The notes beneath the pieces were generated by a model. It did not search any database. It saw only the letters and a program-made list of their open reading frames with translations, and had not been told where the DNA came from. Both the position numbers and the translations under genes were made by a program. From Candidatus Pacearchaeota archaeon (lineage in GTDB: Archaea > Nanobdellota > Nanobdellia > Pacearchaeales > JAPDKA01), in assembly GCA_038890875.1 (NCBI GenBank), contig JAWAFA010000002.1:35356-99355 (forward strand): a DNA stretch of 64,000 nucleotides, read 5' to 3'. Shown piece by piece: positions 2,161 to 64,000 of this stretch. The number at the start of each line of letters is the position of its first letter. Positions within the stretch are counted from its first letter, which is position 1.

Positions 2161-2170
2161 AGAGTTTGAG

Positions 2171-4003: not shown

Positions 4004-4007
4004 AAAT

Positions 4008-5288: not shown

Positions 5289-5295
5289 AGCAAAA

Positions 5296-5395
5296 TGTTA
5301 ATATTTTTTAACACTTGTTAATTATTTTTAACATTAGATTTTATTATGGTTTAATTTTCAAAAGATTTAAATATTAATGTTAATTATTCTTAACA
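5296..5395. promoter_or_regulatory. Internal promoter/operator region: three copies of the palindrome TGTTAA-N6-TTAACA plus a TATA-like box
   Basis: Palindromes at 5296..5313, 5316..5333 and 5378..5395. The first two are spaced 20 bp apart. TTTAAATA sits at 5366..5373, about 24 nt before the ATG at 5397. The third palindrome lies between the TATA box and the start codon. Confidence 0.5.
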
Positions 5396-5396
5396 T

Positions 5397-5909
5397 ATGT
5401 TAGAAATATTTAACACTTTGAAACCTTTCTTTGAAGATTGTTATAGACGTATTAATGTTCGCGAATATGCAAGAATTCAAAAAATAAGCCCTCCGACAGC
5501 TTCAAAGATTCTTGAAAAATTGCATAAAGAAGGTTTGCTAAAAAAAGAAAAAGAGAATCTTTATAATTATTATTTCGCAAATAAAGATTCTGAGTTTTTC
5601 ATAGAATTATCAAGAATTTATTGGAAAAGAATATTAGAAGATTCAGGATTGTTAGAAGAGCTAGAAAAAAACCTGCTAAATCCGATAATTTATCTTTTTG
5701 GTTCTTTATCAAAAGCAGAAGCGAAAGTTGATTCTGACATTGATATAGCAATTTTTACACCAAAGAAAAAAGAAATTAATCTTGAAAAATTTGAAAAACT
5801 TCTAAAAAGGAAAATACAGATTTTTGTTTTTAAGGATATGAAAGATGTAAAAAATGAAGAACTGCTTAAAAATATACTAAATGGATTTAAAATAAAAGGA
5901 AGCTGGTAA
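5397..5909 (+). CDS. Minimal nucleotidyltransferase (MNT) with an N-terminal winged-helix DNA-binding domain
   Basis: wHTH-like segment VREYARIQKISPPTASKILEKLHKEGLL. Pol-beta NTase motif GSLSKAEAKVDSDIDIAIF. Confidence 0.8.
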   Translation: MLEIFNTLKPFFEDCYRRINVREYARIQKISPPTASKILEKLHKEGLLKKEKENLYNYYFANKDSEFFIELSRIYWKRILEDSGLLEELEKNLLNPIIYLFGSLSKAEAKVDSDIDIAIFTPKKKEINLEKFEKLLKRKIQIFVFKDMKDVKNEELLKNILNGFKIKGSW

Positions 5910-6314
5910 ATGGACTGGAAAGAGTGCTTAAAACAAAGAATTGTGAAAGAAACAAAAGAAGATAAAAATCTAGTAAAATCTTTATTAGAAACAGCAGAAA
6001 TAAAATTAAAGTCTGCTGATTCTTTGGCCGATGAATTTTTTATAAGTAAAATTTCTCTATTATATGATTCTCTAAGAGAAATTCTAGAAGCACTAGCTAT
6101 TAAAAAAGGATTTAGGATTTATAACCATGAATGCTATGTTGCTTTTCTAAAGGAGATAATGGGTTTATCAAGAGAAGCAGAAATTTTTAATAATTTGAGA
6201 AAAACTAGAAATGATATAAATTATTATGGAAAAAAACTTGAAAAAGAAGAAGCAAAAGTAATTATAGGAAAATTAAAGAATTTAATTTCGAAATTTAAAA
6301 ATGTGATAAAATGA
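5910..6314 (+). CDS. HEPN-domain protein, partner of the preceding MNT
   Basis: About 130 aa and all-helical. Starts at the base after the MNT stop and overlaps hsdR by 4 nt. Motif [12 protein letters not shown] resembles the HEPN Rx4-6H region but has Tyr where His is expected. Confidence 0.65.
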
Positions 6315-9300: not shown

Positions 9301-9406
9301 GAAAATACTAAGAAAATACGGCTATCCACCTGATAAAGAGAAAAAGGCAACAGAAACAGTTTTAAAACAGGCAGAGTTAGTTGCCGGAAATTTAGTTGGT
9401 GTGTGA
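6311..9406 (+). CDS. hsdR: Type I restriction enzyme, restriction (helicase/endonuclease) subunit HsdR
   Basis: N-terminal nuclease core ([17 protein letters not shown]). SF2 motifs: [12 protein letters not shown] ([10 protein letters not shown]), [12 protein letters not shown]. Confidence 0.93.
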
Positions 9407-11429: not shown

Positions 11430-11939
11430 ATGATAAAACAAAAGTTTGCTGAGTTGAAAAGACAACCAATATTTAAGCTTGAAAAAGGCTTTCAACTTTT
11501 TCTTGTTTTTTGCATAACTGATTCAAGCCTGAATATTGAGCAGATTGATTTCAGTTTTATAAGTTCAAATTCAAGCGGCAAAAATAAAAATGAGAAGGAA
11601 TATAAACCTCATAAAATAAAAAATTTCTCTTTTAAAGGAGGGGTTTGGCAGTTTCACAAAAGTGAAGAAGAAAAAAATTTTGGCACGATTAATATTAAGG
11701 ATGTAAAAGATATTCCAGAGCTTTTACCAAAAATTAAACACCTTTTGGAAGATAAAAAACTTAGTATTGACAAATTTATTTTTATACTAGAGAATAAAAA
11801 AGGCTCTGAAATTTACAGTGTGACTTGCCTGTGCAAAGACTTTTTTGTCTATAAGATAACATTTGACGCAAAAACTTTAAACTTACTCGATACAAAAATG
11901 CATAACTTGTTCGACTTTTTCCAGATTAAAAAAGTATAA
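11430..11939 (+). CDS. Hypothetical protein
   Basis: The ORF is open from a TTG at 11418. The first ATG, at 11430, lies just after the thrS stop. No recognisable motif. Confidence 0.4.
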   Translation: MIKQKFAELKRQPIFKLEKGFQLFLVFCITDSSLNIEQIDFSFISSNSSGKNKNEKEYKPHKIKNFSFKGGVWQFHKSEEEKNFGTINIKDVKDIPELLPKIKHLLEDKKLSIDKFIFILENKKGSEIYSVTCLCKDFFVYKITFDAKTLNLLDTKMHNLFDFFQIKKV

Positions 11940-14791: not shown

Positions 14792-15508
14792 TTACTTATT
14801 TTTAACTTTTTTTGTCGGTCTTATCAATGACATTATTTCATCATCACTTATTGAACAACCATACGCTTTAGCCCCGTACATCAGAGCATCTAATCCTTCT
14901 CTTTCTTCTTCAAAACCAGTTTTCTTTTTTTCATAACCAATAAACAAAATCTCACTAGAGCGAATTATTTTTATCCTTTTACTCTTGAAAAATGTGGCAA
15001 GTTCATTGTCTATATAAATTTTTTTATGGACTTTATTTGCAATAAGTTCAGCAACGCTTGCCGGATTTTCCAGAATCATCCTTGTTGTCCTTTCATCAAT
15101 AACTAAAGCTTTGTTATTTATTTTTAATAATTCATAGACAGCAATACAGCTTGCCTCTCCTCGATGAACTAAATTTATTTTTTCATGGTCAGTATAAACT
15201 ATTGAATTAATTTTTTCCAGTATCTCTTGAGTTTTTGTAATTATTTCCTGACCACCAACAACTTCTAATACTCTACCTTCAACCAGTTTTTTTATCATAA
15301 GTGCCCGTAACTCATATTTTTTTATTTCCATAGGCACATTTACACATTCATTATAGACATCTTGTGTAATTAAAAACTTACCATCAAAACCAACTTTAAG
15401 TTCCTTTAATAGATCATTCATTCCTAACATATTTAAAGTTATTAGACTTGATGAATCAAAGATTAATGCCTTATTTGCTTTTATTTCATCAATTTTTAAT
15501 ATCCTCAT
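14792..15508 (-). CDS. PIN-domain protein (COG2405/DUF3368-like) with a C-terminal extension
   Basis: Acidic and PIN-type motifs: LIFDSSSLI, YNEC, RGEASCIAVYELL, LVIDERTTR. The preferred ATG at 15508 lies 1 nt after the upstream stop. The track ORF extends to 15547. Confidence 0.5.
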   Translation of the reverse strand: MRILKIDEIKANKALIFDSSSLITLNMLGMNDLLKELKVGFDGKFLITQDVYNECVNVPMEIKKYELRALMIKKLVEGRVLEVVGGQEIITKTQEILEKINSIVYTDHEKINLVHRGEASCIAVYELLKINNKALVIDERTTRMILENPASVAELIANKVHKKIYIDNELATFFKSKRIKIIRSSEILFIGYEKKKTGFEEEREGLDALMYGAKAYGCSISDDEIMSLIRPTKKVKNK

Positions 15509-15509
15509 T

Positions 15510-16139
15510 TTATTCAAAAAGTTCATGCACAATTTTGATCCTTTCAAAGATCGGCTTGGTGATTGTTAAAGGTACATTTGCTATACCTGTTTGGCCAATA
15601 TATTCTGCTAATTCCCATTGCGTTATTCCTAAAATCTCAGCAGTCTTACCAAAACTTATACCATGTTCATATATTCGCGAACCTTTGTTTATTCTTGCTT
15701 TTCTAAAAACTTGAATAACATAATCTCGTAGATGACCACTTAATTTATTAACACTTGTAGTTATATTATTTAAACTAGTTCTAAACATTTCTAAATTTTT
15801 TTCTTTCAAAGCCTGGTAACATATTTCGACATCTTTTTTAATTGTCTCATAAAATTCTGGCCATTCTTTATATTCTCTATATTTTGGTCTTTCTATTATT
15901 TTTGCTAAAGCATAGATAATGACGGCAATGCTTATGCTCTCAGTATCTTGATAAATACTTGCACTGTGAATAGTAAGATTACTTAACTCTTTAATTTTAA
16001 GTGCATTCCCTTCTTTAAGGTAAATATTTAAATTTTCGAAGATTTTTAGAACATGTTCATGCTCTCTTAATTCTCTTAACCCTCCTAATTCTTTATTTTC
16101 TTGGCTTTGATTATTTGTCATAGAAAAAAATAAAAACAA
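15510..16139 (-). CDS. UPF0175-like HTH protein (antitoxin-like C-terminus) with a long N-terminal helical domain
   Basis: C-terminal GISFGKTAEILGITQWELAEYIGQTGI matches the UPF0175/COG2886 pattern. Sits immediately upstream of the PIN gene. An alternative start exists at 16121. Confidence 0.45.
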   Translation of the reverse strand: MFLFFSMTNNQSQENKELGGLRELREHEHVLKIFENLNIYLKEGNALKIKELSNLTIHSASIYQDTESISIAVIIYALAKIIERPKYREYKEWPEFYETIKKDVEICYQALKEKNLEMFRTSLNNITTSVNKLSGHLRDYVIQVFRKARINKGSRIYEHGISFGKTAEILGITQWELAEYIGQTGIANVPLTITKPIFERIKIVHELFE

Positions 16140-25662: not shown

Positions 25663-26085
25663 ATGCAAATATCGAAAATTGATGCAGCGAAGATTCGCTA
25701 TCTAATTGCTTTTGAAAAGTATACAAGAATAAAGACGATTGAATGCTTTGAATTTAATGAATCATTAGTTTTTGTGATAAATCCTTCATTGCTAAAGATT
25801 GCTCTAGCAAAAAGAAAGCGCTTACAAGAGTTATCAAAATTTTTAAACAAAAAAGTTAAAGTTCTAGCCATCCCTTTACAAAAAAACGAAGAGAATATTA
25901 CAAAATTTATAGATTCTTTAATCTCTCCAAACAAAATTAAAAATGTGCAATTAAAAGACAACACTTTAATAATCAATGCAGGTCTAAGCAAAGCATTATT
26001 AATTGGAAAAGAAAGAAAGAATATTGTTTTATTAAAAGAGATTTTTAAAAAATATTTTGATATCGAAAAGATAGAAATAAAATAA
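25663..26085 (+). CDS. nusA: Archaeal NusA-like KH-domain transcription factor
   Basis: 140 aa with a two-KH architecture. Conserved operon position after rpl30e. Confidence 0.7.
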   Translation: MQISKIDAAKIRYLIAFEKYTRIKTIECFEFNESLVFVINPSLLKIALAKRKRLQELSKFLNKKVKVLAIPLQKNEENITKFIDSLISPNKIKNVQLKDNTLIINAGLSKALLIGKERKNIVLLKEIFKKYFDIEKIEIK

Positions 26086-26819: not shown

Positions 26820-27821
26820 TCAAAGCGTGCAATCTTCTAGCTTTTTATCAAAGCGCAAGCGCAAGAAGCTAGGCGCTCGAAGTTCATCCGCCCTCGTTAA
26901 CTCAAGAAACTTAACTTCAGCAATTAAACTTGGTTTGATCCATACAACCTCACTTGACGGCTTTTCCTTGTAAATTTTCTCTTGTTCTTTAGCATCAAGT
27001 ACTGAATTTTTTGTTTTTAGTTTCTTCATCATTTCATAAAGCTGGTTTAACAAAGCTTTATCAAATCCTGTTCCTACTCTACCAATATAAACAAGTTTGC
27101 CTTCTTTGTAAGCTGCCAATATCAGAGCACCAAAGTTTCTTACTTTTGAGCCAAGAGTAAAACCTACAATTATTGCGTCGATTGTGTTTAAATTTTTTAT
27201 CTTAAGCCATTCATGCGAGCGTTTAAATTCATATATTGAATCAAGACGTTTTGCCATAACTCCTTCTAAGCCTTGCTCAACAACTTTTTTCCAGAGCTCT
27301 TTTCCATTTGTGGTGTAGGGACACAGCACAATATAAGGCGAGTCTTGGATAAGAGCTTTGAGCTTTTCTTTTCTTTCATAAAGCCTTCTATTGACATAAC
27401 TCTCACCATTAACTTCAAGCAAATCAAAAACAAAAAGCGTGGCAGGAAATTTCTTGCTTCTTAACTCAATTAAAAACCTTTTATCAAGCTGCTCTCTTTG
27501 TTGTAATAAATTAAAATTTGGCTTGCCACTTTTGTCAAGCACAACAAGTTCTGCATCAAGTATGCAGTGCTTTGCCCTTATATTTTTGCCAATCTCAGCT
27601 AATTCAGGATAACGATATGTTATATCATTTTTCCTTCGGTTTATTAATCTTATCCTATTTTTATTTTTATAAACTAGCACGCGTGTTCCATCAAGCTTTG
27701 GCTCATAAATCCAGCCCTTTAAGCTAAGATCTGCCTTGCTCCCAATTTCTGCAAGCATAACATTTGTGCCACTGCCCTTGCCATTTATGCTTTTGCCATT
27801 CCTCATTTTTTCGAGACCCAA
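26820..27821 (-). CDS. ATP-dependent DNA ligase (compact, LigD-ligase-domain-like)
   Basis: Motif I YEPKLDGTR, motif IV EGVMAK, motif V WLKIK. The start is uncertain: the ORF start overlaps mpg by 19 nt, and internal Met codons lie at 27806 and 27758. Confidence 0.85.
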   Translation of the reverse strand: MGLEKMRNGKSINGKGSGTNVMLAEIGSKADLSLKGWIYEPKLDGTRVLVYKNKNRIRLINRRKNDITYRYPELAEIGKNIRAKHCILDAELVVLDKSGKPNFNLLQQREQLDKRFLIELRSKKFPATLFVFDLLEVNGESYVNRRLYERKEKLKALIQDSPYIVLCPYTTNGKELWKKVVEQGLEGVMAKRLDSIYEFKRSHEWLKIKNLNTIDAIIVGFTLGSKVRNFGALILAAYKEGKLVYIGRVGTGFDKALLNQLYEMMKKLKTKNSVLDAKEQEKIYKEKPSSEVVWIKPSLIAEVKFLELTRADELRAPSFLRLRFDKKLEDCTL

Positions 27822-28492
27822 GGATTATCTTTTATATAAAAACGCCATGGCAGATTCTTGCATTCCATTGCATACTCAATTCCAATTCGCTTGGTTGCTA
27901 CGATCTGATTTGGCTTTATTTTTTCGCCTTCAGCAAGCCAAACACGCTTACTTTTGCAAAGATCTTCACCATAAAAACTTGCATCAAGTTTAAAGTTTGT
28001 GCAAAAAAGGCCTGGCCCTTTTGCACCCTTAAAGTTTGATATTGGCTCAGCTGCTCTAATTAAAACGCACTCAGGAACTCCTTCTTGCGAGGTTGTTACA
28101 TTACACTGGTAATAGTTTCCATAGATTAAATAAATGTAAATATGTCCCCCTTTTAAATATTCGGCGATATTTCTATAGGTAACCTTTCCTTTACCTTTAA
28201 TCAACCTTAAAATAAACTTTTCTTTATTATCAACATAATTGCTTATCCTCTGAAAAGCTTTTTTTATTACTTTTAATTTTTCTTTTTCTGTTTGAATTTT
28301 TTTTGAATAAGCATGTGAAGCTTTATCATCAGGTCCAATATAAGCTTCTGTTTCCACAATTTTACCGACAAGCAATTTTCCCTTATAGTTTCGCACAAAA
28401 TATTTTCCCAGCAATTCTTTTGCAGCTTTTAAAGTCGGTTGCATATAAAAACTTCGCCCAAGCCTTTGAAAGTAAATACTTGATGTTTGCAT
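27803..28492 (-). CDS. mpg: 3-methyladenine (alkylpurine) DNA glycosylase, AAG/Mpg family
   Basis: LLGKYFV...GKIVETEAYIGPDDKASHAY...GGHIYIYLIYG. It carries an insertion of ~40 aa after ASHAY. Confidence 0.85.
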   Translation of the reverse strand: MQTSSIYFQRLGRSFYMQPTLKAAKELLGKYFVRNYKGKLLVGKIVETEAYIGPDDKASHAYSKKIQTEKEKLKVIKKAFQRISNYVDNKEKFILRLIKGKGKVTYRNIAEYLKGGHIYIYLIYGNYYQCNVTTSQEGVPECVLIRAAEPISNFKGAKGPGLFCTNFKLDASFYGEDLCKSKRVWLAEGEKIKPNQIVATKRIGIEYAMECKNLPWRFYIKDNPWVSKK

Positions 28493-28497
28493 CTTTT

Positions 28498-29268
28498 TTA
28501 TTTCTCTTTTTCTTCTTTTCTTTCTTCCTTTCCTTCTTTTTTTATACTAAGCTGCAAGGCTTCTAAAAGTTTTTTAGGGCTTGGTTTCTTAACCTTTTCA
28601 ACTTTTCCCAAAATTACTTGCTTAAGTTTTTCTTCAAAACTATCTTTATATTTTTCTAACTCCGGCTCTTTAACTAAACTCAAAACAAGTTTTTTCGCAA
28701 GTTCAAATTCCTCTTTTTTAAATGTAACTTTTTCTTTTAATTCTCTAAAAACAGTTATATCACGAATTTCATAAGTATAATGTAAAGTTGTGAGAAGAAG
28801 GCCGCCTAAATATGGTCTTATTAAGGCAATATGTTCTTTGTTATGCAAAATTATTTTCGCTAGAGCAACTTTTGCAATAGCTCGAAGAACATCCCTTAAC
28901 AAAGAATAAGCTTTTGCATCTCCTTGAGGGATAACATAATAATTGCTTGCAAAGTAAATAGGATCAAAGTTATCAAAATTTGTAAAACTAATAATCTCGA
29001 TTTGTTCAGCTTTTGCTGGCTTTAACTTTGCTAGCTGTTCTCTTGTAAAAATATGCCATTTGCCTTTCTCTATAGCAAAACCATAAAGCACATTTTGCCA
29101 TGCTACTTCAGCTTTACATTTAGGACAAAAACGCTGATATTTTAAAGGCGTCTTGCATTTTCCACAGAGCATATGAAATGAAAATTGTTTTGGCTCAACT
29201 GCATTATAAAGTTTTACTGGAATACTCACAAGCCCAAAAGATATCACTCCCTTCCAAATAGCCTTCAT
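28498..29268 (-). CDS. ku: Ku protein (prokaryotic NHEJ end-binding protein)
   Basis: MKAIWKGVISFGLVSIPVKLYNA, an internal Cys pair region (CGKCKTPLKYQRFCPKCK), and a basic Lys/Glu-rich tail. Confidence 0.92.
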   Translation of the reverse strand: MKAIWKGVISFGLVSIPVKLYNAVEPKQFSFHMLCGKCKTPLKYQRFCPKCKAEVAWQNVLYGFAIEKGKWHIFTREQLAKLKPAKAEQIEIISFTNFDNFDPIYFASNYYVIPQGDAKAYSLLRDVLRAIAKVALAKIILHNKEHIALIRPYLGGLLLTTLHYTYEIRDITVFRELKEKVTFKKEEFELAKKLVLSLVKEPELEKYKDSFEEKLKQVILGKVEKVKKPSPKKLLEALQLSIKKEGKEERKEEKEK

Positions 29269-36115: not shown

Positions 36116-36913
36116 TTAATATGTTTTAGAGATAGCCTTAGAATGGCTTAAAACATAATTTTTTATTAACTCTTCAAAACAAGTAACTGCATCTTCCCAG
36201 AGTTTTATGACTTGTTCTTTGTTTTGACAAAGCTTATTTAGCCTTTTCGGATCGCACATTAAGTATTTTATCTTATTTAAGGTTTCTAAAGTTTTATAAC
36301 TAAAATTGAACTCATTTCTCTGCTTTATTTTTTCATAAGCAGTTTCCCAGTTATAGTTTTCTCCAAGCATACAAAGTAAATTCTGAGGAGCACGTTTAAC
36401 AAAATGAAGTGTTTGATAAAAATGTTCAAATATCGATTCAATTTTGCCATGCCTGTAGTAAAGTAAACTTTTCCTTGATTCACTCAAAGTATAGCGTAGG
36501 CGAGCCTGGCCATTTAGTAAAGGTAGAGTATAATGAAATTTATTTCGGTAATCAGGACCAAAGAAAACTTTACCACTATCAATTACTTCTTTAAAGCTAG
36601 GTTCATAGACGTTAAATCTTCCATCAATAAGCAACTCGATATCAAAAACTCTTAAGTCTAGAGGAATTTTCTTCTTTACTGAAGTAAATATATGGGCTAC
36701 TTCACTAAGGAAAGATTTATCAATTATGAATTTATCAGGAAAAACTAAAATTCCGTCAATATCGCTTCTTCCAGGGACAAATCTTTTTTTATTCAAGTAA
36801 GAACCAAAAACCAAAAAGCTTAAGTTTTTATTGCCAAGCTTTTCTAGGTTTTTAACAAAATTCTCAATAAAACTGTTATAGTCCTTTCTTTTCAGCCTTA
36901 ACAACTCAAGCAT
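36116..36913 (-). CDS. Pol-beta superfamily nucleotidyltransferase-domain protein
   Basis: LVFGSYLNKKRFVPGRSDIDGILVF (GS...DxD), followed by a helical C-terminal domain. Confidence 0.55.
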   Translation of the reverse strand: MLELLRLKRKDYNSFIENFVKNLEKLGNKNLSFLVFGSYLNKKRFVPGRSDIDGILVFPDKFIIDKSFLSEVAHIFTSVKKKIPLDLRVFDIELLIDGRFNVYEPSFKEVIDSGKVFFGPDYRNKFHYTLPLLNGQARLRYTLSESRKSLLYYRHGKIESIFEHFYQTLHFVKRAPQNLLCMLGENYNWETAYEKIKQRNEFNFSYKTLETLNKIKYLMCDPKRLNKLCQNKEQVIKLWEDAVTCFEELIKNYVLSHSKAISKTY

Positions 36914-41526: not shown

Positions 41527-43083
41527 TTAATCCTTGTACAATTTTTTTCTTAGATCCGCAAATTCATGTTGCCCACCGAGAAGCAAAGTTGTGATAGGGG
41601 CTTCTTGCTTAACCAAATAAGAGATATTATTAAAAAGTTTCCTTATTTCCCATTGGGCATTTTCATCTTCTCTAGTTCGCGAAAGATGATAGAGTTGTCG
41701 CAAATTTGTTGCCAGCAAAACTCTTCTCTTATGTGCATTTGTTAAGCAATATTCAGCAGCTTTGCCATATTTTGAAAATTCATAATAGAGTTCACTTGAA
41801 GCATCGCAAACTTCTTTTAATTTTTTATCAAAACCAATTTCTTGAATATTTGGGGGGATAGTATAGCCAAGTTCAGGATTATAGTCCTGGGCGAGGAGAG
41901 TGTTCATTCGGTGTCGTTTTAACTGAGCAAAACAACTTGCGCTAACAATTGCTTCAAAAATTAATCCTGAGATTTCAAATTCTCTAGGCATTTTGTCATA
42001 TTCACTTAAGTATTTTAACCCTTCAAGAAAAAAATTTTTATCATCATTATTTTGGATTAATAAAATTGCTAATGCATAACATTCTACGATACTTAATTTG
42101 GAATTTCTATGGATTAATGCGGCAAGAATATTTACATCAAGATTACCATGGATAACACGAATAACGTTTCTATCAGGGCTTTTGTTTGTAAAAAGAGTTT
42201 CACAAGTTTCGACATTAATTTTTTTTAAATATTTTTTTATTGTTTTTTCAACCACTTCTTCCAAATTTTTTCGTGTAGACTTAAAATTATCTTCAACGAG
42301 TTTTTTGCCTTGAATCTGCTCAAATAATTCAGCATCAGTCAATTGAATTAATGAAGGTGCTATCTTAACTGTTTCTTCAAAAAGCTTTTTTGCAAATTCT
42401 CGCTGTTCATCGAGCTTGCCATATTTGTTCACTCTTATTGCATATTCTAAAGTTTGGCCAGTATAAGAACAACCAAGCTGTGTTTCTGTTGCCAAACTAA
42501 GGCTATATCTTGCATCCTCCTTAGCCGAATTTTCTAATTTTTTTAAAATTTTTTCTTTTTCGTTTTCACTCTTCATTTCTCCAATTTTTTTAGCGTATTT
42601 CTCCTTTAGATAATCAAACAGTTTTTTATTAGCTTCGAAATAAAAATTATTTTGTAAGGCAACTAGTTTTTCAAATTTTTCTAAATCTTCTTGTGAAAAT
42701 TCTTTTGGCCTTACATAATCGCCAGTTAAGGTAACATATCTTTGTGATTTTTCTGTATAGCCGGCGAGACGTCTTTCTTCAATAGCTTCAACAGCAAGTC
42801 TTGAAACTTTTTGGATATTAAAATTAAATATTGCATGATCAGCTATACTTTGATGTCCGATGCCAAGAATATTAGTGATCGACCTTCGCGCACTTTCAGT
42901 GTCATTAATTGAGTTTTCAAGCAATTCATCAACTGAAAGATTACTTCGTGAAATTCTGGCATAAGCAGCAGTTATTGTCTCAGGAGTTAATGCATTTTTT
43001 TCTGCGTCACTTAAACTTAAGCCTTGCTTTATTTTCTCGAGGAGCTTTAAAGGAACGTTAATCCCAACTAATTTAACTTCCAT
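41527..43083 (-). CDS. thyX: FAD-dependent thymidylate synthase ThyX, tandem-domain form
   Basis: First half: GHQSIADHAIFNF...VSRLAVEAIEERRLAGYTEKSQRY (degenerate RHR-S motif). Second half: LKRHRMNTLLAQ. 518 aa. Confidence 0.7.
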   Translation of the reverse strand: MEVKLVGINVPLKLLEKIKQGLSLSDAEKNALTPETITAAYARISRSNLSVDELLENSINDTESARRSITNILGIGHQSIADHAIFNFNIQKVSRLAVEAIEERRLAGYTEKSQRYVTLTGDYVRPKEFSQEDLEKFEKLVALQNNFYFEANKKLFDYLKEKYAKKIGEMKSENEKEKILKKLENSAKEDARYSLSLATETQLGCSYTGQTLEYAIRVNKYGKLDEQREFAKKLFEETVKIAPSLIQLTDAELFEQIQGKKLVEDNFKSTRKNLEEVVEKTIKKYLKKINVETCETLFTNKSPDRNVIRVIHGNLDVNILAALIHRNSKLSIVECYALAILLIQNNDDKNFFLEGLKYLSEYDKMPREFEISGLIFEAIVSASCFAQLKRHRMNTLLAQDYNPELGYTIPPNIQEIGFDKKLKEVCDASSELYYEFSKYGKAAEYCLTNAHKRRVLLATNLRQLYHLSRTREDENAQWEIRKLFNNISYLVKQEAPITTLLLGGQHEFADLRKKLYKD

Positions 43084-50148: not shown

Positions 50149-50997
50149 TTATTTTTTTTCTAAAATCTTTAGCTCAATAATTACATCAAGGCCAGCAAAT
50201 TCTGGATTGCTGTCTAGCACAATAGACGTTTCATTTAAATTCACTACTTTTCCTTGAGTATTGCCTAAAATAATTATATTGTCAAGAGCAGGAGTTAACG
50301 TAAGATAGATGTAATCTTTATCTATTGAAATTGTCAAATTACCGGCAGGAATCTTGATTGTCTGTTCATATGCATTAAGCTTTGCCTTTATTTTATCCGA
50401 AGTAACTTCAGTTATGTTCATGAACATTATTTCATTTAAAGGGATTATTTTTCCTGGTTGGGCATCTATGATCAGCTCAACATCCGTGCCATTTATTTTC
50501 AACACTTTATACTGTAGAGGATCTCCAGGAACGTTATATGTTTTGTTTACAACTGGCGTTTCACCAAAAACTTGAATAACATTTTGTAAAGGAAGATTAA
50601 AGATTCTATCCATTTCTCTTTCTCTAATAATTTTTTCTGTTCGATTGATAATAAAAACCTTATTTAAATCATACTCACCGAAAGCATCCTTTGCTGCAAG
50701 CTTTAAATGTACTTCTTCGCCTTCACTCATGTTAATAATTTTATTATCAATAACAAGAGAGTTAAGACCTAAGTCACGAGAAACTTTTCCAATTACAGAA
50801 TCAAGCATTCCTGATTTAAGAACAGTTTCATTTTCAAGTTTTATTACATATTGTAGCTTTACGCTTGATATTGCCTTTGTCGTCAATTCATTCTTTATTC
50901 CCGAAATAATAAAGAGGTTGGCAATAAAAATTATTATTATCACTGATGCTAAGAGCAAAGTAATTTTGTTAAAATCAAATTTTTTCATTTTTTGCAA
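50149..50997 (-). CDS. Membrane-anchored protein with an FKBP-type PPIase-like segment
   Basis: N-terminal TM helix. GEEVHLKLAAKDAFGEYDLNKV resembles the FKBP/SlyD core. Weak call. Confidence 0.4.
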   Translation of the reverse strand: MQKMKKFDFNKITLLLASVIIIIFIANLFIISGIKNELTTKAISSVKLQYVIKLENETVLKSGMLDSVIGKVSRDLGLNSLVIDNKIINMSEGEEVHLKLAAKDAFGEYDLNKVFIINRTEKIIREREMDRIFNLPLQNVIQVFGETPVVNKTYNVPGDPLQYKVLKINGTDVELIIDAQPGKIIPLNEIMFMNITEVTSDKIKAKLNAYEQTIKIPAGNLTISIDKDYIYLTLTPALDNIIILGNTQGKVVNLNETSIVLDSNPEFAGLDVIIELKILEKK

Positions 50998-59579: not shown

Positions 59580-60857
59580 ATGAGAATAAAACCAGGAAAG
59601 ATAGTAAAAATAGTAAAAAAAGATGGTGAAACGGTTGAAGGAGTAGTAATACCGACTTCTGAAGAAATTGAAGGGATTGTTATCAAATTAGAGAGCGGTT
59701 ATAATATTGGGATAAAAAAAGAAGAGATAAAAGAGATAAAGGAAGTAGGTGAGTCCAAACTTGAAAGGTTTCCTGAGGCCATGATTATTAGTAAAGCTAA
59801 TAAAACGATAGCAGTTGTTATTGCTGGCGGAACAATAAGTAGTAGAGTTGATTATACAACTGGAGCTGTAAGTTCACTAATGAAGCCAGAAAACTTGCTT
59901 TTTCTTGTGCCAGAACTGGCAAAGCTTGCAAATATAAAAATAGATTTTGCTTTTTCTATACTTAGTGAAAATATCACAGCTGATCACTGGAAAATTTTAG
60001 CAAAAAAGTGTGAGAAGTTATTAAATGATAAAAGTATCGATGGGATTATAATCACCCATGGTACAGATACACTACATTATACAGCTGCTACGCTTAGTTT
60101 TATGCTGAAAAATATCAACAAACCAGTCGTTATTACATATGCCCAACGAAGTTCTGATAGACCATCTACAGATGCTGTTTTAAATTTAAAAGCAGCAGCT
60201 ATTACTGCTTTGAGTGATATTGCTGAAGTTGTAGTTGTTGGGCACGCAGGTATTAATGACGATACTTGTTTTGTGTTGAGAGGAACAAAAGTAAGAAAAA
60301 TGCATACAACAAGAAGAGATACATTTAGACCAATAAATACCTTACCAATTGCAATAATTAAAGATGATAAAATGGAAATGATTAGTGAGTATAACAAAAG
60401 GCAAGCAAAAAAAGAAAAAGCGATTGCTGATACAGCTTGGGAGGATAAAGTTGCGCTGATAAAATTTCATCCAAATGCTGATCCAAAAATTTTGGATTTT
60501 TATGCAAAAGAAGGTTATAAAGGAGTTATCATAGAAGCTACGGGCATGGGTCATGTAGCTATCGAAGGTAAAAAAAGTTGGCTTGATAAAATAAAAAATC
60601 TAAGCAAGAAGATGCTCATATGTTTTGCACCACAAACAATTTATGGTTCACTAAATCAAAATGTTTATAGTACGGCAAGATTGCTTGAAAAAGCGGGAGT
60701 TGTTTATTTGCACGATATGCTTCCTGAAACTGCTTATGTTAAGCTTTCTTATGTTTTAGGAAAAACGAAGAATATGGAAAAAGCAAAAGAGATGATGTTA
60801 GAAAACATTGCGCACGAAATCAATATACGTGAGATTCCTGAAAGCTTTCTTTATTAG
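59580..60857 (+). CDS. gatD: Glutamyl-tRNA(Gln) amidotransferase subunit D
   Basis: GatD-type N-terminal beta domain, plus asparaginase motifs AGGTISS and THGTDT. Confidence 0.9.
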   Translation: MRIKPGKIVKIVKKDGETVEGVVIPTSEEIEGIVIKLESGYNIGIKKEEIKEIKEVGESKLERFPEAMIISKANKTIAVVIAGGTISSRVDYTTGAVSSLMKPENLLFLVPELAKLANIKIDFAFSILSENITADHWKILAKKCEKLLNDKSIDGIIITHGTDTLHYTAATLSFMLKNINKPVVITYAQRSSDRPSTDAVLNLKAAAITALSDIAEVVVVGHAGINDDTCFVLRGTKVRKMHTTRRDTFRPINTLPIAIIKDDKMEMISEYNKRQAKKEKAIADTAWEDKVALIKFHPNADPKILDFYAKEGYKGVIIEATGMGHVAIEGKKSWLDKIKNLSKKMLICFAPQTIYGSLNQNVYSTARLLEKAGVVYLHDMLPETAYVKLSYVLGKTKNMEKAKEMMLENIAHEINIREIPESFLY

Positions 60858-60859
60858 TT

Positions 60860-63781
60860 TTATAATTTCAAACTTATAACTTTACTTACTCCATCTTGCA
60901 TCGAAACTCCATAAATAAGATCGCCTTTGCTGATTGTTGCATCATTGTGACTAACAATTATACATTGACTATTCCCAATATGCTCCTTTAGAAGATTAGC
61001 CACACGTTCGCTATTATGTTTATCTAACTCAGCATCAATTTCATCAAAAATATAGAATGGATAAGGACTTAATTTTTGAATAGCAAATATAAAAGAGAGA
61101 GCCACGAGAACCTTTTCACCACCACTAAAGCTCATGGAATCAAATTGCTTTCTTCCAACCTGGATTATAACATCAACTCCTTTTTCAAATATGTTTTTTT
61201 CATCTTCCAATACTAGCTTAGCTTCTCTACCTTTCCAATCAAGTTTACTAAAATTCGTATTGAACTCTGAATTAATCTTTTCAAAAGTAGTTAAAAAAAC
61301 TTTTCTTTTCTCTTTATTTATTTTTTCTATTTGATTAATTATTTCCTGCTTTTCTAGAATTATTTTATTAAGTTTTTCATTAACCTCTTCATATTCTTTT
61401 TTTACTTTCTCATAAGTTTCTAAAGCAAGAAGGTTGACATTACCAAACTCTTCTAACTTTATTTTTGTTTTTTGAAACTTTTCCTCAAGTTTTTCTAAAG
61501 GAAGTTTTATTTTTTTGAGTTCTTTTCCTGTAAATTCTTTCATTTCCTCCTCAAGTGCTTTTAATTCTGCATCATATTTAGCAAGGTTTATATTCATCTC
61601 ATTAATTTTATTATCAATAATAAAAATTTCAGAGTGCAAACTTGAGGATCTTGCCTCTGTTTTGATTATCTCTTCATGTAGAATTTTTTTCTTTTCAATA
61701 AGATTCGAAAATTTTTTATAAATTTCATCATATTTTTCTTGTTTTTCTTTTAAAAGTGCAGAAATTTCTTGCAATTCATCTTCAACATTTTTTAAATTTT
61801 CTTCAGCTTTTGCTTTTTCTTTTTCTGTTCTGGTAAGAACGTCTTGTGCATTCTCAATTTCTCTTTCCTTTAATTCAACATCAAGAGTTAGCTGTTTATC
61901 AAAATCAAGTTTTTGTTTTATTTTTTCTTTTTCCAACAAATATGAATTAAGTTTACTTTTTATTTCAGAAAACTCTTCTTCTATCAAATCTTTTCCGCCA
62001 ACATCTGCTTCAAGCTCAGAAATTTTTTTATTTAAAGTTTCTATTTTGCTTACAATTTCTTTCTTTTCTTTTAATAAATTCTCAATTTGGCTTTTTAATT
62101 CTTTAATTTTATAATTAATAAGTTCATTCTCTTTTTCTTTAGCATCTTCTTTTTCTTTTTCTTTCATAATATCTAAAATTTTAATTTGTAGATTTTTATT
62201 CTCAGCTGTCAATACCTTTATCTCGGCCAAGGCATTTTTTTCTTTTACTTCAATATTTTTGATTTTTTCGTTATATTCATGTTCAAGCTTTTTTTTATGC
62301 TCATCTTCAAGCTCACGCTTGCATTTAGGGCAAATTCTTAATTCCTGTAAATCTTGCCATTCTTTCATATAAAGTTCTTTCTCTCGCAAAAGGCTAGCAA
62401 TTAGTTTTTCTTTTTCCTGGAGAGTATTGTTATTTTCCTCAAACTTTTTTTGTAAATTTTGCAATTCGGAACCGATCTCTTTATTCACCACATTTAATTT
62501 TGATTTTAATTCAGTTAGCGAGGCCTTCTTTTTTGTTATTTCTTCGCTTAATGTTAAAAAGTTTTTATTTAAGAAAGTGAGTCTTTCTTTTGATAATACT
62601 AATTCTCGTGCATTAGCTTCTAAAGTTTCCAACCTCTTTGTTAAATAGCTATATCTTTTTCTAGTTTCATCAATCTTTTTCTCACTACTTTCTAACTTTT
62701 TGTTTTCATCTTCCGCTAGCCTTTCTTTTTGTCTTCTCTTTAATTCACTAAGATCTTTTAAGCTTAGTTCAATTTCTTCTCTTAATTTTTTGATTTTTTC
62801 ATCAGCTGAAGCAAGTTGAGTTTTCAATGAACTTCGTTTCATTTCAAGCTTGGTTACTTGTGTTTTAAGTTCAAGAATACTTGCTTGCATTTCTTTAAGC
62901 TCGACTCCAGAAATACTTTCAATATAACTATCGATAGATTCTATTTCCTTCTTTATTTGCTCAATGTTTTCCTTTAATTTTTTTTGTTCTTGCTCTTTTG
63001 CATTTCTTTTACTCTCTTCTTTTCTGAGCAAATTCAATAGCTTTTCTTTTTCATTAGTTTTTTCGCTCAGTTTTCTCTCAACAATAGAATATTTCAGATT
63101 TTCAAGATGTTGTTTTATTTGATTATAAAAAAGTGCTTGTTTACGCTCAGCTTCAAGATTTTTTAGAAAATGCTCCTTCTCACTAGAAATCGCTCTTATC
63201 TCTCTTATTTTTTCTTCTGTTTTTTCGAGCTCGCGCAAAGCTCTTTCTTTTCTTTCTTCATAAACACTTATTCCAGCAATATCTTCTATTAATCTTCGTC
63301 TTTCTTCTCCCCGCATTTCTACAAATTTAACTATCTCTCGCTGCTGAATCAAATTAAATCCATAAGGGCTCAAGTGTGCTTGCGTTAATAATTCTAAAAT
63401 TTCACTTCTTGTTTTTGTTTTACCATTGATTTTATATATACTCGAACCATCTTCCTTCAGTATTCTTTCAATAACTACTTCTTCTGGAGTTTCATTATCT
63501 ATCACAAAAGACTTATCATGATTATTGAAGACAAGCTGAAGATGGGCTCGGTCACTTCCACCAACATTCTTGCTTCCTTTAAAAAGTAAACTTTGGGCGC
63601 TATCTGCACGTAAACTTTTCATCGCTAATCTACCTAACACAAAACAGATTGCATCGATAATATTACTTTTCCCACTTCCATTTGGTCCGACAATTACATT
63701 TAAACCATCACTAAGGATTATTTCGGTTTTCTTTCCAAAGCTCTTAAATCCATCAATTACTAGTTTTTTTATATAAGCCAT
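60860..63781 (-). CDS. SMC-family ATPase with SMC-type heads, no hinge, and a central CPKC zinc-hook-like motif
   Basis: Head N: FKSFGKK...GPNGSGKSNIIDAICFVLG. Head C: FSGGEKVLVALSFIFAIQKLSPYPFYIFDEIDAELD...YGVSMQDGVSKV. An uninterrupted Lys/Glu coiled coil lies between them. CPKC is at residues 484-487 of 973 (nt 62321..62332). Confidence 0.9.
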   Translation of the reverse strand: MAYIKKLVIDGFKSFGKKTEIILSDGLNVIVGPNGSGKSNIIDAICFVLGRLAMKSLRADSAQSLLFKGSKNVGGSDRAHLQLVFNNHDKSFVIDNETPEEVVIERILKEDGSSIYKINGKTKTRSEILELLTQAHLSPYGFNLIQQREIVKFVEMRGEERRRLIEDIAGISVYEERKERALRELEKTEEKIREIRAISSEKEHFLKNLEAERKQALFYNQIKQHLENLKYSIVERKLSEKTNEKEKLLNLLRKEESKRNAKEQEQKKLKENIEQIKKEIESIDSYIESISGVELKEMQASILELKTQVTKLEMKRSSLKTQLASADEKIKKLREEIELSLKDLSELKRRQKERLAEDENKKLESSEKKIDETRKRYSYLTKRLETLEANARELVLSKERLTFLNKNFLTLSEEITKKKASLTELKSKLNVVNKEIGSELQNLQKKFEENNNTLQEKEKLIASLLREKELYMKEWQDLQELRICPKCKRELEDEHKKKLEHEYNEKIKNIEVKEKNALAEIKVLTAENKNLQIKILDIMKEKEKEDAKEKENELINYKIKELKSQIENLLKEKKEIVSKIETLNKKISELEADVGGKDLIEEEFSEIKSKLNSYLLEKEKIKQKLDFDKQLTLDVELKEREIENAQDVLTRTEKEKAKAEENLKNVEDELQEISALLKEKQEKYDEIYKKFSNLIEKKKILHEEIIKTEARSSSLHSEIFIIDNKINEMNINLAKYDAELKALEEEMKEFTGKELKKIKLPLEKLEEKFQKTKIKLEEFGNVNLLALETYEKVKKEYEEVNEKLNKIILEKQEIINQIEKINKEKRKVFLTTFEKINSEFNTNFSKLDWKGREAKLVLEDEKNIFEKGVDVIIQVGRKQFDSMSFSGGEKVLVALSFIFAIQKLSPYPFYIFDEIDAELDKHNSERVANLLKEHIGNSQCIIVSHNDATISKGDLIYGVSMQDGVSKVISLKL

Positions 63782-64000
63782 GGGATACTAGCGAGAAAAT
63801 CTTTTAATTTTTTTTGTTTTGTTTTTTGTGTTTGCTTTTTTTTATAAGTTGCCCAGCTCTTTCTCATAAATTTTAATTTTTCATCGAGTTTTTTAAACTT
63901 TGAATAATTTTCTAAAAATTTAATAGTCCGAGGATCTGCAGGATAACCAGACCCAAAATCATAATTAAGAATTTTTTTTAATTTTGCTATTTCTCTTTCA
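63769..64000 (-). CDS. rnhB: Ribonuclease HII, C-terminal part (the gene continues past the right window edge)
   Basis: Reverse-strand frame open from the window edge: ...ILNYDFGSGYPADPRTIKFLENY...MRKSWATY...* (GSGYPxDPxT motif). The stop at 63769 overlaps the SMC start by 13 nt. Confidence 0.75.
   Translation of the reverse strand, partial: EREIAKLKKILNYDFGSGYPADPRTIKFLENYSKFKKLDEKLKFMRKSWATYKKKQTQKTKQKKLKDFLASIPWLI

What the first reader, a model, noticed from the sequence alone, without database searches (positions are those of the whole stretch)
60860..63781. SMC-type heads joined by a hinge-less coiled coil with a Rad50-like CPKC hook at the exact midpoint
Seen in the sequence:
- The N- and C-terminal head motifs are of the SMC type (FKSF...GPNGSGKSN..DAICFVLG; SGGEK...PFYIFDEIDAELD; YGVSMQDGVSKV).
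- The ~700 residues between them are continuous Lys/Glu/Leu heptad-like sequence. There is no glycine-rich globular hinge.
- The only Cys pair in that span is CPKC at residues 484-487 of 973, which is the arithmetic centre.
- The local context LRICPKCKRELEDEHKKKLEHEY closely resembles the archaeal Rad50 zinc-hook region as I recall it (CPVCGRELTDEH...).

Established knowledge: SMC dimerises through a hinge. Rad50/SbcC dimerises through a Zn-coordinating CxxC hook.

Inference: this protein combines condensin-type heads with hook-type dimerisation. No mre11, scpA or scpB lies next to it; the neighbours are rnhB (13-nt overlap) and gatD.
Basis: partly seen in the sequence, partly recalled or inferred. 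Interest (0 to 1): 0.7.

Follow-up and report, generated by a model that had tools for sequence, protein, structure and literature searches.

The report
Natural SMC with a zinc hook
This archaeal chromosome-organising SMC protein has lost its usual hinge and carries a Rad50-type zinc hook at the tip of its arms, a design so far found only as a laboratory chimera but conserved here across a large group of tiny DPANN archaea.

Summary

- **The gene.** Window 60860..63781 (-) encodes an intact 973-aa protein.
- **Heads.** They are firmly SMC-type. Head-only NCBIfam scores are SMC 199 and 196 bits against Rad50 53 and 25 bits. The best PDB match is the Pyrococcus Smc head (E 3e-99). In a head tree, Rad50 separates from all SMCs in 100% of bootstraps.
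- **No hinge.** There is no Pfam SMC_hinge hit. Sister Woesearchaeota/Nanoarchaeota SMCs of 1153 aa do have one.
- **Hook.** CPKC sits at residues 484-487, at the apex of two predicted arms of about 313 residues each. All 120 listed homologues have a central CPxC. In a 114-sequence alignment, C484, P485 and C487, plus A734, are the only invariant residues in the roughly 600-residue middle.
- **Hook origin.** A profile of the hook region finds the crystallised P. furiosus Rad50 zinc hook (1L8D, E 8e-9).
- **Phylogeny.** The hook family is one clade, sister to hinge-bearing Woesearchaeota/Nanoarchaeota SMCs. This fits a single replacement of hinge by hook.
- **Neighbours.** Housekeeping genes. 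rnhB overlaps the start by 13 nt, and this linkage is conserved. No scpA, scpB or mre11 lies nearby.

Zinc binding, the kleisin partner, and whether this is the only SMC in the genome were not tested. I found no published description of a natural SMC with a zinc hook.

The parts
60860..63781 (-). Whole gene: 973-aa hinge-less SMC with a central zinc hook (stop codon at 60860-60862).
   Evidence: ORF listing and translation. A protein 100% identical over the full length (P0001) and about 60%-identical full-length relatives are in public assemblies.
63272..63781 (-). N-terminal half of the ATPase head (residues 1-170). It holds Walker A GPNGSGKS (63665-63688), the R-loop stretch RLAMKSLRAD (63602-63631) and the Q-loop region (63332-63352).
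   Evidence: SMC_prok_A scores 199 bits on this piece alone, against 53 bits for Rad50. K38, R58 and Q147 are invariant in 114 sequences.
62342..63271 (-). Ascending coiled-coil arm (residues 171-480). It starts with the conserved neck IAGISVYEERKE...
   Evidence: AlphaFold2 predicts helix 171-480 with breaks at 213-221, 353-357 and 428-434. SMC_prok_B aligns residues 3-476 to profile positions 1-473. G170, I171, Y174, E175, K178 and E184 are invariant.
62297..62341 (-). Hook: LRICPKCKRELEDEH (residues 481-495). CPKC itself is at 62321-62332.
   Evidence: This is the only non-helical turn at the apex of the model. C484, P485 and C487 are invariant and H495 is at least 90% conserved. The profile hits the P. 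furiosus Rad50 hook 1L8D (E 8e-9) and Pfam Rad50_zn_hook.
61382..62296 (-). Descending coiled-coil arm (residues 496-800).
   Evidence: AlphaFold2 predicts helices 493-847 with breaks at 596, 625-628, 749-761 and 778-785.
60863..61381 (-). C-terminal half of the ATPase head (residues 801-973). It holds the signature motif FSGGEK (61112-61129), Walker B FYIFDEID (61034-61057) and the H-loop (60941-60955).
   Evidence: SMC_prok_A scores 196 bits on residues 783-973 scanned alone, against 25-30 bits for Rad50, ASRP and RecN. S886, G887, G888, E889, D913, E914, D916 and H945 are invariant.
63769..64000 (-). 3' end of the upstream RNase HII gene (rnhB), cut by the window end. It overlaps the SMC start codon by 13 nt (63769-63781).
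   Evidence: Frame translation ends in ...DFLASIPWLI* and overlaps ATGGCTTATATAA. Pfam RNase_HII genes lie in the same position in relatives L001, L008 and L090, and nearby in L006, L091 and L092.
59580..60857 (+). Convergent downstream neighbour gatD (Glu-tRNA(Gln) amidotransferase subunit D). It is context only and not part of the machine.
   Evidence: Pfam GatD_N, Asparaginase and Asparaginase_C. The same neighbour is found in L001 and L008.

Best explanation
This is the chromosomal SMC (condensin-type) ATPase of a DPANN archaeon close to MAGs that NCBI labels Candidatus Pacearchaeota and Nanoarchaeota. In its lineage the globular hinge was replaced by a Rad50-type CPxC zinc hook.

**Proposed mechanism.**
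1. Each chain folds back on itself at residues 481-492. The two helical arms of about 313 residues pair into one antiparallel coiled coil, roughly 46 nm long at 0.1485 nm rise per residue (my own calculation). This brings the N- and C-terminal halves together into one SMC ATPase head.
2. Two chains are then joined permanently at the arm tips. Four cysteines, C484 and C487 from each chain, hold one Zn2+, as in Rad50.
3. The heads engage and release with ATP, as in Smc.
4. The dimer would therefore do what Smc does (hold and move along chromosomal DNA), with a minimal metal clasp in place of the hinge.

**What is shown and what is inferred.**
- *Shown here:* the SMC identity of heads and arms, the absence of a hinge, sequence similarity of the apex to Rad50 hooks, strict conservation of the hook, single-clade origin next to hinge-bearing relatives, and a housekeeping gene context.
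- *Inferred:* zinc binding, dimerisation through the hook, and the chromosome-organising role.
For: **Heads and arms are SMC.**
- The full protein scores 512 bits against SMC_prok_A. It falls below the 729-bit cut-off, as expected when the hinge part of the profile is unmatched; it matches in two stretches. The best Rad50 model scores 119 bits.
- Head-only scores are 199 and 196 bits for SMC against 53 and 25 for Rad50.
- PDB sequence search: Pyrococcus Smc E 2.8e-99. Foldseek target-normalised TM-score of 0.92-0.93 to the P. furiosus Smc head.
- All catalytic motifs are invariant in 114 sequences.

**No hinge.** No Pfam SMC_hinge hit, while controls are positive. An alignment with 1153-aa Woesearchaeota SMCs shows that their residues from about 507 to 690 are replaced by about 30 residues here.

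**Hook.**
- CPxC is central in 120 of 120 homologues.
- The hook is the only non-helical turn at the apex of the model.
- The hook profile hits Rad50 hook structures 1L8D, 6ZFF and 5GOX and Pfam Rad50_zn_hook.
- Searched against 1.84 billion representative proteins, all top 150 hits carry CPxC. They are either this family, fragments without heads, or archaeal Rad50s.

**Evolution.** The hook clade has 93-100% bootstrap support. Hook clade plus Woesearchaeota/Nanoarchaeota hinge SMCs has 95%. Rad50 is separated in 100%.

**Feasibility.** A B. subtilis Smc with its hinge swapped for the P. furiosus Rad50 hook supports normal growth (PMC5344682). The reverse swap works in fission yeast Rad50 (PMC6969161).

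**Context.** rnhB overlaps the start, gatD lies downstream, and tRNA synthetase and DnaG-like genes are nearby. This arrangement is syntenic in relatives down to about 36% identity. PADLOC defence models score far lower than SMC models: mad3 161 bits and LmuB 98 bits.
Against: - No metal binding or dimerisation has been measured. The structure model is a monomer, and I could not inspect its coordinates.
- No kleisin was found. A ScpA profile built from 17 archaeal loci finds nothing (all E > 4) in the window or in the hook-type loci fetched up to that point (L001-L010). No ScpA, ScpB or Mre11 Pfam hit appears in any hook-type context, including L090-L092.
- I could not scan whole genomes. A second, hinge-bearing SMC in the same cells is not excluded, so the hook protein could be an accessory paralogue.
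- The tree is neighbour-joining on 370 head columns, not maximum likelihood.
- The hook-to-Rad50 similarity covers about 90 residues that are mostly coiled coil. Convergence on a CPxC...H turn cannot be formally excluded.
Confidence: 0.75

Rival explanations
1. It is an accessory SMC-like paralogue used for DNA repair or defence against foreign DNA. It would work beside a canonical hinge-bearing SMC in the same cell, and would not be the cell's condensin.
For: - Whole genomes could not be checked, so a second SMC is not excluded.
- No scpA is linked to it.
- PADLOC gives moderate hits to the SMC-like defence ATPases mad3 (161 bits) and LmuB (98 bits).
- Hook-type apices are otherwise known from repair proteins (Rad50) and from ASRP/ClsN (PMC9389158).
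Against: - SMC equivalog models score three to five times higher than any defence or repair model.
- The family is the sister group of the ordinary Woesearchaeota/Nanoarchaeota SMCs rather than a distant branch.
- None of the 120 best relatives has a hinge.
- The gene context is conserved and housekeeping: rnhB, gatD, tRNA synthetases and a primase-like gene. There are no nuclease or defence partners.
- The hinge-type Woesearchaeota SMC genes also lack an adjacent scpA, so missing linkage does not distinguish the two.
Confidence: 0.15
2. The heads and arms are SMC, but the CPxC turn is only a structural cap or an intramolecular metal or redox site. Dimerisation would then happen elsewhere (arms or heads), or the protein would act as a monomer.
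For: - Zinc binding and dimerisation were not measured.
- The structure model is a monomer.
- Hinge-less SMCs with no Cys at all exist in CPR bacteria and in marine Actinobacteria (PMC12153180). So an SMC arm tip without a classical dimerisation domain does occur.
Against: - C, P and C are three of only four invariant residues in about 600 residues (the fourth is A734).
- The motif, its spacing and the His at +8 match the crystallised Rad50 hook, in which the four Cys of two chains share one Zn (Hopfner 2002 as cited in PMC5344682).
- Two Cys from one chain cannot complete a tetrahedral zinc site.
Confidence: 0.08
3. It is a member of the archaea-specific SMC-related proteins (ASRP: ClsN/coalescin, Sph1/2, arcadin-4). 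These also combine SMC-superfamily heads with a zinc hook.
For: - ASRPs have a zinc hook in most members (PMC9389158).
- NCBIfam ASRP gives a hit of 112 bits.
Against: - The ASRP score is far below its 300-bit cut-off. On the heads alone it is only 27 and 30 bits, against 199 and 196 for SMC.
- The ASRP model is 593 positions long, while this protein has SMC-length arms. Its N-terminal arm aligns to the SMC profiles as far as residue 476.
- The arcadin-4 model scores 31 bits.
Confidence: 0.02
4. It is an ordinary Rad50/SbcC, or the missing hinge is an assembly or sequencing deletion.
For: A central CxxC hook in a long coiled coil is the Rad50 hallmark.
Against: - Heads are SMC by every test.
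- There is no adjacent Mre11. In contrast, the real short Rad50 found in related MAGs sits in an operon with a Metallophos/Mre11-like gene (L089).
- The same hinge-less architecture is found in 120 of 120 homologues from NCBI, JGI, ENA and Logan assemblies.
Confidence: 0.01

Closest known systems
Prokaryotic Smc (Smc-ScpAB condensin), e.g. Pyrococcus and B. subtilis Smc; nearest relatives are the 1153-aa Woesearchaeota/Nanoarchaeota SMCs
   Same: - Head sequence and fold.
- All ATPase motifs: Walker A, R-loop Arg, Q-loop, LSGGE-type signature, Walker B, D-loop and H-loop.
- The conserved neck sequence.
- Arm length of about 310-340 residues per strand, with joint- and elbow-like breaks.
- Housekeeping gene context.
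   Different: - There is no hinge domain (PF06470). About 180 hinge residues are replaced by a turn of about 30 residues carrying CPxC.
- The score is below the NCBIfam SMC equivalog cut-off.
- No scpA lies next to the gene, and no kleisin has been identified.
Rad50/SbcC zinc hook (PDB 1L8D, 6ZFF, 5GOX; Pfam PF04423)
   Same: - A CPxC motif at the exact apex of an antiparallel coiled coil.
- Flanking sequence CPxCxRELxDEH, with His at +8.
- Significant profile matches to the crystallised hooks.
   Different: - The heads are not Rad50-type.
- The arms align to SMC.
- There is no Mre11/SbcD partner gene.
- MAGs labelled Nanoarchaeota/Woesearchaeota carry a separate short (about 685 aa) Rad50 next to an Mre11-like gene.
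Engineered B. subtilis Smc(Zh) chimera: hinge replaced by the P. furiosus Rad50 hook (Buermann et al. 2017, PMC5344682)
   Same: The same domain plan: SMC heads and arms with a Rad50 hook at the tip. The chimera supports growth, which shows the design can work.
   Different: That protein was made in the laboratory. This one is natural, strictly conserved, and has diversified to about 35% identity across many DPANN lineages.
Archaea-specific SMC-related proteins (ASRP: ClsN/coalescin, Sph1/2; PMC9389158)
   Same: Archaeal SMC-superfamily ATPases with a zinc hook and no hinge.
   Different: ASRPs are about 600 aa, with short arms and divergent heads. This protein's heads score six to seven times higher on SMC models than on the ASRP model.
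Hinge-less SMCs without a hook: marine Actinobacteria (Sussfeld et al. 2025, PMC12153180) and the roughly 760-aa CPR SMCs seen here (L023, L041)
   Same: SMC heads, with the hinge domain lost.
   Different: Those proteins have no CxxC (stated in the paper; no central Cys in the CPR proteins). Here a defined replacement dimerisation motif is present.

Membership tests
SMC (prokaryotic Smc, NCBIfam TIGR02169/TIGR02168) | Bipartite ABC-type ATPase head with SMC-specific sequence (Walker A, R-loop, Q-loop, signature, Walker B, H-loop). | tested here: met
   Head-only scores are 199 and 196 bits for SMC_prok_A. PDB Smc heads match at E 1e-99 to 1e-50. Foldseek target-normalised TM-score is 0.92-0.93 to 4I99. 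The motifs are invariant. The protein clusters with SMC and not with Rad50 in 100% of bootstraps.
SMC (prokaryotic Smc, NCBIfam TIGR02169/TIGR02168) | Long intramolecular antiparallel coiled-coil arm of SMC length. | tested here: met
   AlphaFold2 predicts helices 171-480 and 493-847 folding back at 481-492. The N-terminal arm aligns to SMC_prok_B positions 1-473.
SMC (prokaryotic Smc, NCBIfam TIGR02169/TIGR02168) | Globular hinge dimerisation domain (Pfam PF06470) between the two arm strands. | tested here: not met
   No SMC_hinge hit at E <= 1. None of the 120 homologues lists PF06470. Six control SMCs are positive. An alignment shows the hinge segment is absent.
SMC (prokaryotic Smc, NCBIfam TIGR02169/TIGR02168) | Score above the curated equivalog cut-off. 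| tested here: not met
   512 bits against a cut-off of 729.4 for SMC_prok_A, and 470 against 567 for SMC_prok_B. This shortfall is expected when the hinge part of the profile is unmatched.
SMC (prokaryotic Smc, NCBIfam TIGR02169/TIGR02168) | A kleisin partner (ScpA) that bridges the heads. | tested here: inconclusive
   No ScpA Pfam hit among ten unassigned ORFs scanned in the window, nor in any hook-type context. A custom ScpA HMM gives all E > 4 on the whole window and L001-L010. Whole genomes could not be searched. A ScpA homologue search returned only Aenigmatarchaeota.
Rad50/SbcC | CxxC zinc hook at the coiled-coil apex. | tested here: met
   This is met at the sequence level. CPKC is at 484-487. 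The hook profile hits 1L8D at E 8e-9, and Pfam PF04423 scores 24.6 bits on the 95-aa segment.
Rad50/SbcC | Rad50-type ATPase head. | tested here: not met
   The best Rad50 models score 53 bits (N-head) and 25 bits (C-head), against 199 and 196 for SMC. The mean head distance to Rad50 is 2.37, against 0.88 to Woesearchaeota SMCs.
Rad50/SbcC | Operon partner Mre11/SbcD nuclease. | tested here: not met
   No Metallophos/Mre11 gene lies beside the hook-SMC gene in any context examined. A positive control is the short Rad50 in L089, which overlaps an upstream Metallophos gene.
Rad50/SbcC | One Zn2+ shared by four Cys of two chains. | not testable with these tools
   This needs metal analysis and oligomer measurement, or at least a multimer structure prediction.
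ASRP (NCBIfam NF045487; ClsN/Sph) | Score above the family cut-off, with ASRP-type heads and short arms (about 600 aa). | tested here: not met
   112 bits against a cut-off of 300 for the whole protein. The heads score 27 and 30 bits. The protein is 973 aa.

The most novel reading that the evidence does not exclude
In a large DPANN clade the hook protein is the only SMC. It would work with no hinge and with no recognisable ScpA kleisin: either with an undescribed partner or as a bare dimer. It would be coupled to the replication machinery through its conserved, translationally overlapping linkage to RNase HII and its proximity to a DnaG-like primase gene. That would be a natural minimal SMC motor, and it would show that neither the hinge nor a canonical kleisin is required for SMC function.
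Probability: 0.2. Interest if true: 0.85.

Novelty: new variant of a known kind. Interest (0 to 1): 0.66.

Why it matters
What the SMC hinge does is a long-running question. It may be only a clasp, or it may also be a DNA-binding or gate element needed for loading and loop extrusion.

Laboratory chimeras suggested that a Rad50 hook can stand in for the hinge (PMC5344682). This family would be evolution's own version of that experiment. It has been maintained under strict selection across a broad radiation of ultra-small archaea.

It offers several things:
- a natural, compact SMC for structural and single-molecule work;
- a dated domain-swap event between the two great branches of the SMC superfamily;
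- a test case for whether kleisin-dependent ring closure is universal.

It also has a practical consequence for annotation. These proteins are labelled simply 'chromosome segregation SMC family protein', and they fall below the NCBIfam equivalog cut-offs.

Tried and rejected
1. **Looking for the kleisin.**
   - I scanned ten unassigned window ORFs against Pfam and found no ScpA or ScpB.
   - I built a ScpA profile by jackhmmer from scpA genes lying directly downstream of smc in 17 archaeal loci. I searched every ORF of the window and of the hook-type and Woesearchaeota-type loci. Nothing scored better than E = 4.
   - I searched the 5.8-billion-protein set with an Aenigmatarchaeota, unclassified-archaeon and Methanothrix ScpA alignment. 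The 120 listed hits were essentially all Aenigmatarchaeota, so this said nothing about Pacearchaeota.
2. **Testing co-occurrence with Rad50.** I compared 'longest contig' lengths by eye between the hook-SMC list and the short-Rad50 list. I saw no shared contig length, so the test was uninformative.
3. **A conserved neighbour.** A roughly 400-aa gene lies beside the hook-SMC gene in L006, L007, L090 and L091, and I considered it as a possible novel kleisin. It has a signal peptide and a C-terminal membrane anchor, and by eye it resembles a surface protein. I rejected it.
4. **The GTDB genome scan.** It gave useful controls and outgroups but not a taxonomic census.
5. **The first bootstrap tree.** The run with Biopython timed out. 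I redid it with a numpy neighbour-joining routine.
6. **Possible second variant.** P0154 and P0164 looked like a second, shorter-armed hook-SMC type. They are N-terminally truncated fragments of the same family.
7. **Literature.** Four full-text searches found no description of a natural SMC carrying a zinc hook. The library does not hold most subscription-journal papers, so prior mention elsewhere cannot be excluded.


Full report
**1. What is in the sequence**

Window 60860..63781 on the minus strand is one intact ORF of 973 residues.

The protein has only four cysteines: 46, 484, 487 and 940. C484 and C487 form CPKC at 0.497-0.500 of the length.

Residues 171-800 are 45% charged. They contain 1% Gly and a single Pro, which is the Pro of the hook.

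The upstream gene is the 3' end of an RNase HII gene. Its stop codon overlaps the SMC start by 13 nt, ATGGCTTATATAA. The convergent downstream gene is gatD.

The window is about 31% G+C. Its closest protein relatives come from MAGs labelled Candidatus Pacearchaeota, Nanoarchaeota or Woesearchaeota.

**2. The heads and arms are SMC, not Rad50**

| Test | SMC | Rad50 or other |
|---|---|---|
| NCBIfam, whole protein | SMC_prok_A 512 bits; SMC_prok_B 470 bits | best Rad50 119; ASRP 112 |
| NCBIfam, N-head only | 199 bits | Rad50 53 |
| NCBIfam, C-head only | 196 bits | ASRP 30; RecN 29; Rad50 25 |
| PDB sequence search | Pyrococcus Smc head constructs E 2.8e-99 to 1e-84 | Rad50 heads about 1e-10 |

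A head-only scan was run because coiled coil and hook could inflate the Rad50 scores on the whole protein.

An AlphaFold2 model was built on a 114-sequence alignment (mean pLDDT 81.8). Its best Foldseek hits are condensin Smc4 and Pyrococcus Smc. The P. furiosus Smc head bound to ScpA matches at a target-normalised TM-score of 0.92-0.93. Rad50 first appears at rank 13.

The N-terminal arm aligns to the SMC profile almost up to the hook: residues 3-476 against profile positions 1-473. The arm itself is therefore SMC-derived.

In the 114-sequence alignment every catalytic residue is invariant: K38, R58, Q147, S886-G887-G888-E889, D913, E914, D916 and H945. So is the neck just above the head: G170, I171, Y174, E175, K178 and E184.

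**3. There is no hinge**

Pfam finds no SMC_hinge at E <= 1. None of the 120 best homologues lists PF06470.

The same scan finds SMC_hinge with E 1e-27 to 1e-35 in control SMCs fetched here. These are from Woesearchaeota, Nanoarchaeota, Aenigmatarchaeota, Micrarchaeota and a Bacilli MAG.

An alignment with the 1153-aa Woesearchaeota/Nanoarchaeota SMCs shows that their segment from about 507 to 690 is replaced here by about 30 residues around CPKC.

**4. The apex is a Rad50-type hook under strict selection**

- *Conservation.* All 120 listed homologues (945-1064 aa) have CPxC at 0.47-0.505 of their length: CPLC 93, CPKC 14, CPVC 6, CPTC 5.
- *Invariant residues.* Across about 600 residues of arm, the only invariant positions are C484, P485, C487 and A734. 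H495 is conserved in at least 90% of sequences.
- *Structure model.* Helices 171-480 and 493-847 are joined by a non-helical turn at 481-492.
- *Match to solved hooks.* A 95-column profile of the hook region finds the crystallised P. furiosus Rad50 hook (1L8D, E 8.1e-9; 6ZFF, E 6.8e-8) and the human RAD50 hook (5GOX, E 0.0018). These are the three best matches in the PDB.
- *Pfam.* 20 of 28 hook segments hit Pfam Rad50_zn_hook, with a best E of 2.5e-10. The window's own segment scores 24.6 bits against a gathering cut-off of 24.3.
- *Direct comparison.* The window reads CPKCKRELEDEH and P. furiosus Rad50 reads CPVCGRELTDEH.
- *Wide search.* Against 1.84 billion representative proteins the hook profile gives 885 hits at E <= 0.001. 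Every one of the top 150 has CPxC. They are this family (31 with SMC heads), fragments without heads, or archaeal Rad50s of 675-900 aa.

**5. Evolution**

I built a neighbour-joining tree on 370 head columns, with 300 bootstraps.

- Rad50 separates from all SMCs in 100% of replicates.
- The hook family is one clade: 100% without the Rad50 outgroup and 93% with it.
- Hook family plus the hinge-bearing Woesearchaeota/Nanoarchaeota SMCs form a clade in 95%.

The simplest reading is a single replacement of hinge by hook in one DPANN lineage, followed by wide diversification. Members are only about 35% identical to each other.

MAGs labelled Nanoarchaeota or Woesearchaeota also carry a separate short Rad50 (about 685 aa, central CPxC). 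It sits in an operon with a Metallophos/Mre11-like gene. A resident Rad50 is therefore a plausible donor of the hook. I could not single out a donor.

**6. Context**

Outside the window, I examined eight further independent gene contexts (nine in all with the window).

- RNase HII lies directly upstream of the SMC gene in the window, L001, L008 and L090.
- It is one small ORF away in L006, L091 and L092.
- It is convergent downstream in L007.
- It is absent only in L004.
- A Toprim/DnaG-like gene lies 2-6 kb away in seven contexts.
- No ScpA, ScpB or Mre11 domain appears in any of them.

By contrast, scpA sits immediately downstream of smc in 17 hinge-type archaeal loci from other lineages. 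It is absent from the four Woesearchaeota/Nanoarchaeota hinge-type loci as well. Missing linkage is therefore a trait of the wider group and is not specific to the hook proteins.

Defence-system models score much lower than SMC models.

**7. Mechanism proposed**

*Shown:* a functional-looking SMC ATPase head, SMC arms of about 313 residues per strand, and a hook-type apex.

*Inferred:* two chains share one Zn2+ through C484 and C487 of each, as in Rad50 (established from the 1L8D structure). This gives a permanently joined dimer. Its heads cycle with ATP and act on chromosomal DNA as Smc does.

The design is known to be workable. B. subtilis Smc with the P. furiosus Rad50 hook in place of the hinge supports normal growth (PMC5344682). 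Rad50 with a MukB hinge works in fission yeast (PMC6969161).

**8. What remains open**

- Zinc binding and dimerisation.
- The identity or existence of a kleisin partner.
- Whether a second SMC exists in these genomes.
- The exact taxonomic range.

**9. Novelty**

Four full-text searches found the following related work:
- the engineered chimeras;
- the ASRP family, with a zinc hook but short arms and divergent heads;
- a hinge-less actinobacterial SMC explicitly lacking CxxC.

None describes a natural SMC with a zinc hook. Public annotation calls these proteins 'chromosome segregation SMC family protein' without comment. I rate it a new variant of a known kind, with the caveat that the paper library is incomplete.

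Noticed in passing
P0126 (1479 aa) and P0171 (1483 aa), homologues found: Two hook-SMC homologues carry an intein of about 520 residues inserted near the Walker A region. The N-terminal intein splicing motif is at about residues 39-135 and the C-terminal motif at about 542-564. SMC_prok_A still scores about 500 bits on them.
   Followed up: partly
L023, L041, L055, L057, L077 (Saccharibacteria/Patescibacteria MAGs): CPR bacteria have SMCs of only 754-771 aa. L023 and L041, the two scanned, have no Pfam SMC_hinge hit; none of the five has a central cysteine pair. This is a second kind of hinge-less SMC, different from the hook type.
   Followed up: partly
L089:4793-8049 (assembly GCA_040960315.1) and the 120 hits: MAGs labelled Nanoarchaeota or Woesearchaeota encode an unusually short Rad50 (about 685 aa, CPxC near residue 350). 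Its gene overlaps an upstream Metallophos/Mre11-like gene by 4 nt. It scores only about 140-150 bits on Rad50 models, far below their cut-offs.
   Followed up: partly
window 63769-64000 and loci L001, L006, L007, L008, L090, L091, L092: The linkage between RNase HII and the SMC gene is conserved across a family that is only about 36% identical, and in the window it is a 13-nt overlap. A Toprim/DnaG-like gene also lies 2-6 kb away in seven contexts. This hints at co-regulation with lagging-strand replication genes.
   Followed up: partly
window 26820-29268 (-): A cluster of an ATP-dependent DNA ligase (328 aa), a methylpurine-DNA glycosylase (229 aa) and a Ku protein (256 aa). This is a bacterial-style Ku-ligase end-joining pair in a DPANN archaeon.
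   Followed up: partly
window 646-9406 (+): A type I restriction-modification operon: HsdM, HsdS and HsdR. It is interrupted by a 610-aa ORF with no Pfam hit (2171-4003) and by a nucleotidyltransferase (5397-5909) with a small partner ORF that also has no Pfam hit (5910-6314). By eye the pair resembles a minimal NTase/HEPN-type toxin-antitoxin module.
   Followed up: partly
L011 (labelled Methanosarcinales) and L032 (labelled Obscuribacteraceae): The SMC of L011 groups inside the Woesearchaeota/Nanoarchaeota hinge-type clade. L032 carries an archaeal-type SMC followed by an archaeal-type ScpA. Both look like mis-binned contigs or horizontal transfers.
   Followed up: no
window 41527-43083 (-) and L092:11247-12791: A double-length ThyX of 518 aa with two Thy1 stretches. 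In relative L092 the equivalent gene (514 aa) lies directly downstream of the hook-SMC gene.
   Followed up: no
window 14792-15526 (-), 11430-11939 (+), 25663-26085 (+), 36116-36913 (-), 50149-50988 (-): Five ORFs of 140-279 aa have no Pfam match at E <= 0.01. One of them (36116-36913) has a counterpart of similar size, also with no Pfam hit, at the syntenic position in L001.
   Followed up: no
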